From the UHGV virus genome UHGV-0337617: a DNA stretch of 22,339 nucleotides, one strand, 5' to 3'. Shown here piece after piece: positions 2,589 to 4,734 of this stretch. The notes beneath the pieces were generated by a model that was given only the letters and a program-made list of their open reading frames with translations, was not told where the DNA came from and did not search any database. Source of the stretch: a virus. Each line of letters begins with the position of its first letter. Position 1 is the stretch's first letter. Both the position numbers and the translations under genes were made by a program.

Positions 2589-2837
2589 TTAGTGAACAAA
2601 CCACTCGTCAGCAGACTCCCAGGTATCTTTCAGAGTTTCCTGAACAAAAGTTTTAGCTGAATCTTTATCGGCGGTGCGCGTAACAGAAAGGCCATCGTTG
2701 CTGGTAGCTTTTACGATCACCTCTACATCGTCATAACGTTTACTGATGCGTCGGGTTAATTCTTCCTTTAACGCATCCACAGCACCGGTTGGCATTTTAG
2801 TCATTTTTTCTTTGGCTATGCAGATTTCAATACGCAT
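2589..2837 (-). CDS. dinI: DinI-like DNA-damage-inducible protein
   Basis: 82 aa; MRIEI.IAK...L..EL.RRI...Y....V.V..........DK......ETW.SAD.WFV resembles E. coli DinI; GAGGGA RBS; LexA boxes upstream. Confidence 0.8.
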
Positions 2838-2852
2838 AAAAGTCCCTCTACA

Positions 2853-2868
2853 CTGTGTTTGTATACAG
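2853..2868. promoter_or_regulatory. Putative LexA box (CTGT-N8-ACAG) upstream of dinI-like gene
   Basis: CTGTGTTTGTATACAG, 16 bp upstream of the dinI-like start. Confidence 0.5.
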
Positions 2869-2880
2869 TATCATTTTTAA

Positions 2881-2896
2881 CTGTATGGATAAACAG
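2881..2896. promoter_or_regulatory. Second putative LexA box (CTGT-N8-ACAG)
   Basis: CTGTATGGATAAACAG, 28 bp from the first box. Confidence 0.45.
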
Positions 2897-2922
2897 TGTC
2901 AAGGGTGAAGGAAAGTGATTTT

Positions 2923-2982
2923 TTGGGGCATGCATGGGGCAAAAATATTTGTTGTGGGGCATTTTGGGGCATGATTGGGACA
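2923..2982. repeat. Cluster of five direct repeats (A/T)TGGG(G/A)CA; candidate integrase arm-type sites (attP arm)
   Basis: ttggggca, atggggca, gtggggca, ttggggca, attgggaca within 60 bp; the unit TGGGGCAT(G/C)ATTGGGACA recurs at 3175-3192. Confidence 0.4.
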
Positions 2983-3128
2983 CTTTGTTACATATGAACT
3001 TTGCCGATTTTTATATGACATGGAAATACAACGCTTTGATTCTTCTAAATAAAAAACATGCTCTTGGGCGTTCTTTAGTGATTTTTAAAAATTCCGTATC
3101 ACGCAGTTAACATGACGGGTATTAAGGA

Positions 3129-4442
3129 TTAACTTACTGATTTTAATAAGCCTCTGGTGTCACTTTGGTGACTATGGGGCATCATTGGGACATAATCTGT
3201 CAGCTTCTGATTCAGCATTGCGATCTGTTCTGCATTGCTGTCAGTCATCCATGCTCCGTATACATTGAATACCATCTGGGCACTTGCATGGCCCATCTGG
3301 CTGGCAATGAAGCTTGGGTTTGCTCCGGCAGATAATGACCAGCACGCATAAGTGTGTCGTGACTGGTATGCCTTTCGATGCCTGATCCCTGCACGCTTAA
3401 TGGCTGTTTCCCATGAGTCACCTACAGAATCGACTTTGTAGACAAAACCTACCTGTTCGCTTTTTCTAACCACTTGAGGGTTAAACACGAAAGTACATTC
3501 ATGGTTCACTGAACGTCCATATTCACGTAGTTGCACCTTGATGTTGTACTGCTTACCCAGTCTTGTCATTTCAGCCTGATTTTTCAGGACACTGATAGCG
3601 GGCTGGATAAGGTGCACAACCCTGTTTGTGCTTGCTTCAGTTTTCGGTAGAGTGAACTCACCAAGTTTCGTATAATTGCGCCTGATGGTAATTGTTCCTG
3701 CCTTCAGATCGATATCTTCCCAGGCCAGGGAGACCAGTTCACCGTGACGCATTCCTGTGTACACAGCCAATGACCACAGGTTTTTCGTCTGCTGATGTCG
3801 GCAAGCATCTATCAGGCGAATAAATTCGTCACGAGTTAGCGGATCTGGCTCTGCCCTGGCTCTTTTAAGAGGCTTAATTCCCTGGAAGGGATTTGCTTCT
3901 AAGTAACCGTGATCTGCAGCAAACTGAAACATTCCAGCGATTGTCGTCATGTAATAATTTACAGTAACGACGCTCCGTCCTTTTGCTGCTGCTTTGTTTT
4001 TCGTTGAATTCTGATACCCGGTCAGCAAATCTTTCCTGATATACAGCAATTCCTCTTTGGTTACCGATGACACCAGTTTACTGCCTCCAATTTTCGGAAC
4101 CATCGTTCTTGCAACGGATTCATAGCGATTGAATGCATTTGCAGAGATTTCCATTCGTTTCAGATCCAGCCACTTTTCTTCAAGTTCCTTCACCGTAATT
4201 TCTTTTTTACTTACCCCAAAAGCCTGAAGGTTGGGGGAGTCAGGGAACTGTGCAGCATAATCAAAGCTTCCTGTGCGGATGGCAAAACATACTGATGTCC
4301 GCAGTTCCCCGGCGATCTTCCTGTTCTTGGCAGTGTCAGGGACACCAAGATTTTCCCTGACACGTTTACCTTTAAAATTAAACCAGATGCGTAATGTGCC
4401 GCCGTGGTTTTCGACGCCTGTTGGATATTTGACTTTATCCAT
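3129..4442 (-). CDS. int: Tyrosine recombinase / phage integrase
   Basis: 437 aa; C-terminal catalytic region with R...HxxR...Y pattern (GMRHGELVSL, RHTYACW, NVYGAW); GGAGGT RBS; xis-like gene immediately upstream. Confidence 0.9.
   Translation of the reverse strand: MDKVKYPTGVENHGGTLRIWFNFKGKRVRENLGVPDTAKNRKIAGELRTSVCFAIRTGSFDYAAQFPDSPNLQAFGVSKKEITVKELEEKWLDLKRMEISANAFNRYESVARTMVPKIGGSKLVSSVTKEELLYIRKDLLTGYQNSTKNKAAAKGRSVVTVNYYMTTIAGMFQFAADHGYLEANPFQGIKPLKRARAEPDPLTRDEFIRLIDACRHQQTKNLWSLAVYTGMRHGELVSLAWEDIDLKAGTITIRRNYTKLGEFTLPKTEASTNRVVHLIQPAISVLKNQAEMTRLGKQYNIKVQLREYGRSVNHECTFVFNPQVVRKSEQVGFVYKVDSVGDSWETAIKRAGIRHRKAYQSRHTYACWSLSAGANPSFIASQMGHASAQMVFNVYGAWMTDSNAEQIAMLNQKLTDYVPMMPHSHQSDTRGLLKSVS
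3174..3192. repeat. Second copy of TGGGGCAT(C)ATTGGGACA repeat at the 3' end of int; candidate arm-type site
   Basis: Matches 2965-2982 except one base; lies inside the last codons of int. Confidence 0.4.
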
Positions 4443-4497: not shown

Positions 4498-4734
4498 TCA
4501 CCTGGGTTGTTTGTTTTTCATTGAGGCGACCCAGGCATCTATTGCTTTTCTGTTATACATACATTCACTGGAAGGCTTTGGATTACCGTCTGGTGATACG
4601 TGAATATACTCTCTTCCAACCATCCAGCATTCTTTCCGGGCCCGAAGAATTGTGCCTGGTTTGAGCCCGGTAATTGCGATAAGAACGCTTTCACAAACCC
4701 ATTCATTGGGAGCCAGTTGAATCACATTGCCCAT
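4498..4734 (-). CDS. xis: Excisionase-like DNA-binding protein
   Basis: 78-aa basic protein directly upstream of int in the same orientation; GAGGT RBS. Confidence 0.65.
   Translation of the reverse strand: MGNVIQLAPNEWVCESVLIAITGLKPGTILRARKECWMVGREYIHVSPDGNPKPSSECMYNRKAIDAWVASMKNKQPR

What the first reader, a model, noticed from the sequence alone, without database searches (positions are those of the whole stretch)
2923..3192. Cluster of TGGGGCA-type direct repeats flanking the 3' end of int (candidate attP arm sites)
Seven copies of (A/T)TGGG(G/A)CA occur within 270 bp, including two near-identical 18-bp units, one of them inside the last codons of int. In lambda-type systems the arm-type Int binding sites sit next to the int 3' end. 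Tail genes lying directly beside int also imply the phage (attP) arrangement or tandem prophages.
Basis: partly seen in the sequence, partly recalled or inferred. Interest (0 to 1): 0.5.

Follow-up and report, generated by a model that had tools for sequence, protein, structure and literature searches.

The report
Integrase arm sites in phage attP
The repeated TGGGGCA words are very probably the accessory ('arm') docking sites of the phage integrase, on both sides of an 11-base crossover site that targets the E. coli gene yecE; this is an ordinary lambda-style attachment site whose arm motif I did not find described for this integrase family.

Summary
Six exact WTGGGRCA copies plus one GTGGGGCA lie in 2923-3192, all on one strand, and no exact copy occurs elsewhere in the 22 kb. 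No 270-bp stretch held more than 3 copies in 2000 shuffles.

Six copies form three pairs spaced 11 bp. The crossover core is CACGCAGTTAA (3100-3110). It matches the annotated attL/attR of phage phiP27, and it is where homology to E. coli lysogens breaks, inside yecE. It lies between the five-copy cluster (2923-2982) and the pair inside the last codons of int (3174-3192).

Int has an N-terminal Arm-DNA-binding domain (PF12167), and an excisionase gene follows int.

Nine attP sites from relatives, at least three with other cores, keep same-orientation pairs at the same distances. In 73 of 74 integrase relatives from other species the pair sits at the int 3' end, and its synonymous codon positions are frozen. 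Two of the window's three IHF consensus matches lie between the arm sites and the core.

Binding itself is untested. The site is a new member of a known kind and of modest interest.

The parts
2923..2941 (+). Distal P-arm pair of candidate arm-type Int sites (TTGGGGCA ... ATGGGGCA, 11 bp start-to-start).
   Evidence: Conserved in phiP27, CharmingMan, L081 and the phi80 fossil attR. Absent in Klebsiella phage Mulock.
2954..2961 (+). Single GTGGGGCA copy. It is weakly conserved and is probably a weak or dispensable site.
   Evidence: It is degenerate in phiP27 (TCGGGACG) and CharmingMan (TTAGGACG).
2964..2982 (+). Proximal P-arm pair of candidate arm-type Int sites (TTGGGGCA ... TTGGGACA). It ends 118 bp left of the core.
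   Evidence: The block is almost invariant in all five functional yecE-type attPs. A pair lies at the same distance from the P' pair (196-200 bp between the P-arm copy nearest the core and the first P' copy) in nine attPs.
2991..3018 (.). Imperfect inverted repeat CATAYG-N15-CRTATG. This is a candidate accessory-protein site with no assigned partner.
   Evidence: phiP27 and the PPompW fossil have CATACG...CGTATG where the window has CATATG...TATATG.
3029..3041 (-). IHF consensus match AATCAAAGCGTTG in the P arm, 59-71 bp left of the core.
   Evidence: WATCARNNNNTTR has only 3 matches in the whole window, and 2 are inside attP. This one is only partly conserved in relatives.
3059..3090 (.). Conserved block TGCTCTTGGGCGTTCTTTAGTGATTTTTAAAA next to the core on the P-arm side. 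It is a candidate excisionase or host-factor site.
   Evidence: It is kept in Mulock and in relatives with other cores (Stx2 phage I, IdasGreatGrand, FSL SP-016) and absent in mEp460_ev081.
3100..3110 (.). Common core CACGCAGTTAA (identity segment between attP and attB, holding the crossover region). It is flanked by the imperfect inverted repeat CCGTATCAC / ACATGACGG (3094-3118), a candidate pair of core-type Int sites.
   Evidence: phiP27 attL/attR annotation; break points of lysogen homology; unoccupied yecE of K-12. The core-type sites are inferred from the sequence only.
3130..3142 (-). IHF consensus match AATCAGTAAGTTA in the P' arm, 20-32 bp right of the core, overlapping the int stop codon. 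It corresponds in position to lambda H'.
   Evidence: It sits at the same position (-45 from the P' pair) in all five yecE-type attPs. A different sequence that still fits the consensus sits at -44 in mEp460_ev081. In Mulock the element lies outside the int ORF yet is conserved.
3174..3192 (+). P'-arm pair of candidate arm-type Int sites (ATGGGGCA ... TTGGGACA), overprinted on int codons V-P-M-M-P-H.
   Evidence: The pair is present at the int 3' end in 73 of 74 relatives from other species and occurs nowhere else in 336 kb of those loci. Its four-fold degenerate positions are invariant, while control four-fold sites vary.
3129..4442 (-). int: a 437-aa tyrosine integrase with an N-terminal arm-binding domain.
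   Evidence: Pfam PF12167 Arm-DNA-bind_2 (residues 7-70, E 1e-23) and PF00589 (E 3e-18). It is 95% identical to phiP27 Int. An AF2 model of residues 1-100 gives pLDDT 86 with three strands plus a helix.
4498..4734 (-). xis: a 78-aa excisionase of the DUF1233 (Rac XisR/YdaQ) type.
   Evidence: Pfam PF06806, E 1e-32. Rac XisR binds a Rac attR fragment in EMSA (PMC4632033).

Best explanation
Window 2921-3192 is the complete attP of a phiP27-like lambdoid phage that integrates into the 5' part of the E. coli gene yecE. Strand exchange takes place within the 11-bp common core CACGCAGTTAA (3100-3110). The TGGGGCA/TGGGACA words are arm-type sites read by the N-terminal domain (PF12167) of the 437-aa integrase, while its C-terminal domains bind and cut the core. 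There are two pairs plus a single copy in the int-distal P arm, and one pair in the int-proximal P' arm inside the last codons of int. Bends at the IHF-like sites (3029-3041 and 3130-3142) would bring the arms back to the core, so that Int protomers bridge arm and core as in the lambda intasome. The DUF1233 excisionase would act on the P arm to reverse the reaction. Shown here: the repeats, their non-random clustering, the position of the core, the Int domains, and family-wide conservation of pair position, spacing and orientation. Inferred: that Int, rather than another protein, binds the repeats; that IHF binds the consensus matches; and that two tandem sites 11 bp apart each take one Int protomer, giving 2 + 2 = 4 arm contacts for the tetramer.
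Confidence: 0.85

Rival explanations
1. The TGGGGCA repeats are binding sites of the DUF1233 excisionase (recombination directionality factor), or of both Xis and Int, rather than Int arm-type sites.
For: Excisionases typically bind tandem direct repeats about 10-11 bp apart (lambda X1/X1.5/X2; Gifsy-1 Xis, from my own knowledge). The same Xis family accompanies Int in every relative annotated. Rac XisR shifts an attR fragment, and the Rac attR region holds the GGGGCA repeats.
Against: The motif lies on both sides of the core, including the P' arm that stays with int in attL. It is kept there in 73 of 74 relatives. Excisionase sites in the characterised lambda-type systems are confined to one arm. 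Int itself carries a dedicated arm-binding domain that needs a target. Other conserved blocks in the P arm (2991-3018 and 3059-3090) are available as Xis sites.
Confidence: 0.07
2. The repeats are operators for transcriptional control of the neighbouring genes (the SOS-regulated dinI-like gene, or int) and are unrelated to recombination.
For: The P-arm cluster begins 19 bp from the -35 hexamer of the dinI promoter. The P' pair lies inside int.
Against: phiP27, Stx2 phage I and IdasGreatGrand keep the same pairs with no dinI gene next to them. The dinI gene already has two LexA boxes. The pairs track the core at fixed distances.
Confidence: 0.04
3. The repeats come from protein coding: a repeated peptide in ORF 2934-3110 (+) (annotated as L58 in phiP27), and a conserved A-P-x-M-P-H motif at the Int C-terminus.
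For: phiP27 annotates the + strand ORF. The P' pair is always in the same reading frame of int.
Against: The + strand ORF has no Pfam match and is not open in CharmingMan, IdasGreatGrand or SP-016. Synonymous positions inside the P' pair are frozen, unlike control codons. In Rac the pair lies outside the ORF. The Int tail around the pair is otherwise poorly conserved, and it is truncated after the pair in Mulock.
Confidence: 0.02
4. The cluster is a chance occurrence or a simple low-complexity stretch.
For: The total count in the window (6) is not itself unusual: 17 of 100 shuffles reach 6.
Against: The clustering is far beyond chance, with a maximum of 3 per 270 bp in 2000 shuffles. It is reproduced in relatives from dozens of species.
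Confidence: 0.01

Closest known systems
Bacteriophage lambda attP (P1, P2 / core COC' / P'1-P'3 with IHF sites H1, H2, H', and Xis/Fis sites)
   Same: The site is about 270 bp and has a short core flanked by arm-type repeats unrelated to the core sequence. The int gene abuts the P' arm. An IHF consensus lies between the core and the tandem P' sites at a position similar to lambda H' (+20 to +32, then arm sites at +64 to +82). The arm sites are tandem at about one helical turn. The integrase is heterobivalent with an N-terminal arm-binding domain, and an excisionase gene lies next to int.
   Different: The arm motif is TGGGGCA rather than lambda's C/AAGTCACTAT (recalled from memory). The N-domain belongs to a different Pfam family (PF12167, not PF09003). 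Sites come in pairs, 2+1+2 in P and 2 in P', and all are in direct orientation, whereas lambda P2 is inverted (from memory). The P' pair is inside the int coding sequence. The target is inside a protein gene (yecE). The excisionase family is different (DUF1233).
Phage phiP27 (AJ298298 / NC_003356), a Stx2e phage integrated in yecE
   Same: Int is 95% identical. The 11-bp attL/attR sequence is the same. The repeat pairs are in the same positions. It shares 55% of the window at 91.5% identity.
   Different: The record is written in prophage order, so the two arms are at opposite ends. Only the 11-bp att is annotated, not the repeats. There is no dinI gene next to the P arm, and one P' copy reads TGGGACA.
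Rac prophage IntR/XisR of E. coli K-12 (attL inside ttcA)
   Same: It has the same integrase family (43% identity, same N-domain signature PTGVE..RIWF.F.GKR.RE) and the same Xis family. GGGGCA repeats are in both attL and attR in one orientation. Integration is into the 5' end of a protein gene (PMC4632033).
   Different: The motif is extended to GGGGCAAA. The P' pair lies just outside the intR ORF. The core is different (ttcA). Four to five copies lie in attR.
933W-type Stx phages (Stx2 converting phage I, AP004402; 7-bp annotated attachment site)
   Same: Int is 68% identical. One TGCCCCA pair lies in the int 3' codons. The annotated attachment site is at the same relative position (68 and 126 bp). 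The block GCTCTTGGACGATCTT is conserved.
   Different: There are three pairs in the P arm, formed by a 31-bp tandem duplication. The record annotates part of this array as 'arrangement g/gg, region III' without calling it arm sites. The core is different.
Arm-type binding domain of the Yersinia HPI integrase (PDB 3jtz) and AP2-type DNA-binding domains

Membership tests
Lambda-type attP of a heterobivalent tyrosine integrase | An integrase with a tyrosine-recombinase catalytic domain is encoded next to the site. | tested here: met
   PF00589, E 3e-18, residues 202-395. The int stop is 18 bp from the core.
Lambda-type attP of a heterobivalent tyrosine integrase | The integrase has a separate N-terminal arm-binding domain. 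| tested here: met
   PF12167 Arm-DNA-bind_2, E 1e-23, residues 7-70. The AF2 model has three strands plus a helix at pLDDT 86. Structural similarity to known arm-binding domains is weak.
Lambda-type attP of a heterobivalent tyrosine integrase | A short core is identical in attP and attB, and prophage junctions map to it. | tested here: met
   CACGCAGTTAA at 3100-3110. attL starts at 3100 and attR ends at 3110 in lysogens. The same 11-mer is in the empty yecE of K-12.
Lambda-type attP of a heterobivalent tyrosine integrase | Repeated arm-type sequences, unrelated to the core, lie on both sides of the core. | tested here: met
   Five copies lie at -177 to -118 and two at +64 to +82 from the core. 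They are conserved in relatives.
Lambda-type attP of a heterobivalent tyrosine integrase | Sites for a DNA-bending host factor (IHF) lie between the arm sites and the core. | tested here: inconclusive
   Two of the window's three WATCARNNNNTTR matches lie in attP, and the P' one is positionally conserved. This is a consensus match only, with no binding data. Stx2 phage I, IdasGreatGrand and FSL SP-016 have no exact match at that position.
Lambda-type attP of a heterobivalent tyrosine integrase | The Int N-domain physically binds the arm repeats, and they are required for recombination. | not testable with these tools
   This needs EMSA or footprinting and att-site mutagenesis. No such data were found in the searchable literature.
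Lambda-type attP of a heterobivalent tyrosine integrase | An excisionase (directionality factor) is encoded beside int. | tested here: met
   ORF 4498-4734 (-), PF06806 DUF1233 putative excisionase, E 1e-32.
phiP27-like, yecE-integrating phages | The Int is closely related to phiP27 Int, and the att core in yecE is identical. | tested here: met
   95% protein identity, the same 11-bp core, and yecE junctions in 790 E. coli genomes.
IntR (Rac)-type integrase family with PF12167 N-domain | It shares the N-domain signature and GGGGCA-type repeats in both att arms. | tested here: met
   IntR is 43% identical over 413 residues, and GGGGCA repeats are present in Rac attL and attR.

The most novel reading that the evidence does not exclude
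The whole PF12167 (phiP27/933W/Rac-type) integrase family, including many Shiga-toxin phages, may use one shared arm code: TGGGGCA in tandem pairs 11 bp apart, all in direct orientation, with a fixed spacing of about 200 bp between the P and P' pairs. The P' pair is overprinted on the integrase's own last codons. That would mean an intasome built from 2 + 2 paired arm contacts, with a geometry different from lambda. Because the arm code is shared while the cores differ, it would also mean arm-level cross-talk between co-resident prophages, for example one phage's Int or Xis acting on another's arms, or on the fossil attR copies carried by phi80, mEp237 and PPompW.
Probability: 0.2. Interest if true: 0.5.

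Novelty: new member of a known kind. Interest (0 to 1): 0.3.

Why it matters
It gives a concrete, testable map of attP: arm pairs, IHF-like sites, the core and a conserved accessory block. The integrase family concerned moves many E. coli prophages, including Stx-converting phages at yecE, prophages in the O104:H4 outbreak lineage, and Rac. The shared TGGGGCA-pair signature could be used in three ways:
- to find attP, attL and attR ends of such prophages automatically;
- to design integration vectors;
- to ask whether co-resident prophages interfere with each other's integration and excision.

Conceptually it adds no new mechanism. It is the lambda paradigm with a different arm word and layout.

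Tried and rejected
- A single-sequence AlphaFold model of Int 1-100 was unusable (pLDDT 44.5), so I repeated it with a 43-sequence alignment.
- Foldseek against the PDB gave no significant match.
- A profile of nine N-domains against PDB sequences gave nothing.
- Full-length Int against the PDB matched only catalytic domains.
- Most IMG/VR relatives were useless for the P arm, because the contigs are trimmed 3 nt after int. Only L081 and L070 gave phage-form sites.
- My first regex for the pair used the wrong spacing and found nothing. It was corrected.
- Literature searches for arm-type sites in this family found no description of the repeats. The term sets were Stx/attP, yecE/attP, IntR/XisR, 933W, Arm-DNA-bind_2, phiP27/yecE and Gifsy-1 Xis. 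The Gifsy-1 Xis paper turned out not to bear on this family.
- I looked for a terminator or sib-like hairpin in the P arm and found none. The 'palindrome' I2 is not a real hairpin, because both halves carry GGGG.
- I considered the phi80, mEp237 and PPompW matches as independent functional attPs and rejected this. They end in a yecE 5' fragment, so they are fossil attR junctions. The real attP core of phi80 is 1.2 kb away.

Full report
**What is in the sequence**

The region lies between a dinI-like gene and int. The dinI-like gene is at 2589-2837 on the minus strand (PF06183). It has a sigma-70-like promoter and two LexA boxes at 2853-2868 and 2881-2896. The int gene is at 3129-4442 on the minus strand and encodes 437 aa. 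An excisionase gene of the DUF1233 type follows at 4498-4734.

The pattern WTGGGRCA matches six times in the 22,339-bp window, counting both strands. All six are on the + strand and all lie in 2923-3192.

In 2000 dinucleotide-preserving shuffles, no 270-bp stretch held more than three matches. The Poisson probability of six or more in 270 bp is about 1e-11.

Six of the copies form three pairs with exactly 11 bp start-to-start: 2923/2934, 2964/2975 and 3174/3185. The last pair lies in int codons V-P-M-M-P-H, 15-21 codons before the stop.

**Where the core is**

Phage phiP27 (AJ298298) is written in prophage order. Its first base aligns to window 3100. Its annotated 11-bp attL and attR (CACGCAGTTAA) equal window 3100-3110.

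E. coli complete genomes give independent support:
- 790 genomes match the int side starting exactly at 3100.
- Matches on the dinI side end at 3110.
- None of the 5426 genomes holds 2840-3400 in one piece.

The junctions of strain SF-088 read as follows:
- attL: ...GTTACCCTC|CACGCAGTTAA|CATGACGGG
- attR: ...TTCCGTAT|CACGCAGTTAA|AGTTGCGGGCAT

The unoccupied yecE of K-12 has ...GTTGCCCTC CACGCAGTTAA AGTGGCGGGCAT, 86-96 nt into the gene.

The window is therefore in the phage (attP) arrangement. A tandem-prophage junction would look the same. The core lies between the five-copy cluster, which ends 118 bp to its left, and the pair that starts 64 bp to its right. The core is flanked by an imperfect inverted repeat, CCGTATCAC / ACATGACGG. 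I take these to be core-type sites around a 7-bp overlap, but that is inference only.

**The integrase**

Int has PF12167 (Arm-DNA-bind_2; residues 7-70, E 1e-23) and PF00589. An AlphaFold model of residues 1-100 built on 43 homologues has pLDDT 86. It shows three antiparallel strands followed by a long helix.

The structural searches gave weak support:
- Foldseek and sequence searches of the PDB were not significant for this domain.

The Pfam assignment is strong and the structural confirmation is weak but consistent.

**Comparative evidence from attP sites**

Nine attPs in phage order were compared: the window, phiP27 (ends rejoined), CharmingMan, IMG/VR L081, Klebsiella phage Mulock, Stx2 converting phage I, IdasGreatGrand, Salmonella FSL SP-016 and mEp460_ev081. 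Their integrases are 60-100% identical to the window's, and at least three of the sites have unrelated cores.

In all nine:
- every GGGRCR copy is on the same strand;
- copies come in pairs exactly 11 bp apart;
- one pair lies at the 3' end of int;
- between the P-arm copy nearest the core and the first P' copy there are 196-200 bp;
- no copy occurs on the opposite strand in 400-500 bp.

The DNA between the pairs is often unalignable, for example in Mulock. In Stx2 phage I the annotated attachment site lies 68 bp from the P' pair and 126 bp from the first P pair, against 69 and 123 bp in the window. That record marks part of its tandem array of three pairs as repeats ('arrangement g/gg') without interpreting them.

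Rac of E. coli K-12, whose IntR is 43% identical, has ATGGGGCAAATTGGGGGCA between the attL core and the intR stop. It has four to five GGGGCAAAA repeats in attR.

**Comparative evidence from integrase relatives in other species**

Seventy-four integrase relatives from other species (47-89% identity) were scanned. They include Citrobacter, Enterobacter, Klebsiella, Pantoea, Yersinia, Rahnella and Xenorhabdus. In 73 of them a G(T/C)CCC-N6-G(T/C)CCC pair sits at the int 3' end. No such pair occurs in the remaining 336 kb of those loci on either strand.

Inside the pair, the four-fold degenerate third positions are C 74/74, A 69/74 and C 74/74. Four-fold sites at invariant residues elsewhere in the same genes use all four bases. 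The constraint is therefore on the DNA, not on the peptide.

**Other elements of the site**

WATCARNNNNTTR (the IHF consensus) has three matches in the window, and two are in attP.
- The match at 3130-3142 lies 20-32 bp right of the core, between the core and the P' pair, like lambda H'. It is at the same position in all yecE-type sites. In Mulock it lies outside the ORF. In mEp460_ev081 a different sequence at the same position still fits the consensus.
- The match at 3029-3041 is less conserved.

A block at 3059-3090 (TGCTCTTGGGCGTTCTTTAGTGATTTTTAAAA) is kept even in relatives with other cores. It is my candidate for the excisionase or another accessory factor. An inverted repeat at 2991-3018 shows a paired change in phiP27. 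For the family, the only biochemical datum I found is that Rac XisR shifts a Rac attR fragment (PMC4632033).

**Interpretation**

The simplest account is a lambda-type attP of about 270 bp (2921-3192). Int N-domains dock on the TGGGGCA words of both arms. IHF-type bends fold the arms onto the core. Int C-terminal domains exchange strands within CACGCAGTTAA. Xis acts on the P arm for excision.

One pair per arm, as in Mulock, IdasGreatGrand, SP-016 and mEp460_ev081, gives four arm sites. That matches the four protomers of a tyrosine-recombinase tetramer. The extra distal pair here may serve the integration or excision choice as lambda P1 and P2 do. Both of these points are inference.

**Rivals**

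- Xis sites. This is not excluded by conservation alone, because Xis co-occurs with Int. It is unlikely, because the motif is on both arms and Int needs an arm target.
- Transcriptional operators. The pairs persist without dinI and track the core.
- A coding artefact. This is excluded by the frozen synonymous sites, by the Rac pair lying outside the ORF, and by the non-conserved + strand ORF.
- Chance. This is excluded.

**Comparison with what is known**

Functionally this is the lambda paradigm. It differs in several ways:
- the arm word;
- the N-domain Pfam family;
- the strict pairing and uniform orientation of the sites;
- the overprinting of the P' pair on int;
- the Xis family;
- a target inside the 5' part of a protein gene.

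The phiP27 core and yecE as an integration site are published and annotated. I found no description of the arm sites for this family in the searchable literature. That literature excludes most subscription journals, so earlier work may exist.

**Verdict**

This is a new member of a known kind, of modest interest.

Noticed in passing
window 2589-2902: A dinI-like gene (82 aa, PF06183) on the minus strand, with a sigma-70-like promoter (-35 at 2897-2902). Two LexA boxes lie at CTGTGTTTGTATACAG (2853-2868) and CTGTATGGATAAACAG (2881-2896). This SOS-regulated module is shared with many phages, and its similarity ends at about 2906, just before the P arm.
   Followed up: partly
L007 2490-2766 (phi80), L008 2500-2760 (PPompW); also mEp237: These unrelated phages carry a fossil attR of a yecE-type phage: TGGGGCA pairs, then the core, then a 5' fragment of yecE. 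In phi80 the pairs are intact, and phi80's own attP core is 1.2 kb away. In PPompW the repeats and core are decayed (CATGCAGTTAA). That locus appears to be the 'attB-in-prophage' into which Stx2a phages integrate (PMC8112680).
   Followed up: partly
L006 478-1248, L004 778-1548; window 3100-3147 minus strand: In lysogens yecE loses its first 31 codons. RefSeq annotates a 256-aa DUF72 protein whose first 16 codons come from the phage P' arm, with an ATT start overlapping the int 3' end. The phage sequence next to the core (..RHV|NCVEG) mimics the native ..RHF|NCVEG. Whether yecE stays functional is unknown.
   Followed up: partly
window 3059-3090 and 2991-3018: Two further conserved elements lie in the P arm. 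The block TGCTCTTGGGCGTTCTTTAGTGATTTTTAAAA is kept in relatives with different cores. The inverted repeat CATAYG-N15-CRTATG shows a compensatory change in phiP27. Neither has an assigned binding protein.
   Followed up: partly
window 3129-3200 (Int residues ~415-437): The Int C-terminal tail beyond the catalytic domain is poorly conserved, is shortened after the motif in Mulock and is missing in Rac IntR. It always encodes A/V-P-x-M/V/L-P-H/Q where the P' pair lies. The protein tail seems to be a by-product of the DNA sites.
   Followed up: yes
window 2934-3110 (+): A 58-aa ORF spans the P arm up to the core and is annotated in phiP27 as hypothetical protein L58. It has no Pfam match and is not open in several relatives, so it is probably not a gene.
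   Followed up: yes
L045 2833 onward (IMG/VR UViG_2850796239_000011): A 95%-identical integrase whose attL side reads CATGTTAACTG and then continues into non-yecE DNA (TTAATGAGGGCATTGAG...). This suggests insertion at a secondary site or into another element.
   Followed up: no
L090 2462-2545 (Stx2 converting phage I, AP004402): The P arm holds three TGCCCCA pairs in a 31-bp tandem array. The record annotates two of the units as 'arrangement g/gg, region III', so the number of arm pairs varies by tandem duplication within the family.
   Followed up: partly
L151-L153, L155, L161 (Rahnella, Hafnia, Yersinia relatives): In these relatives (52-54% identity) both copies of the P' pair read TGCCCCG instead of TGCCCCA. 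This is a lineage-specific change in the last position of the arm word and could be checked for co-variation with N-domain residues.
   Followed up: no
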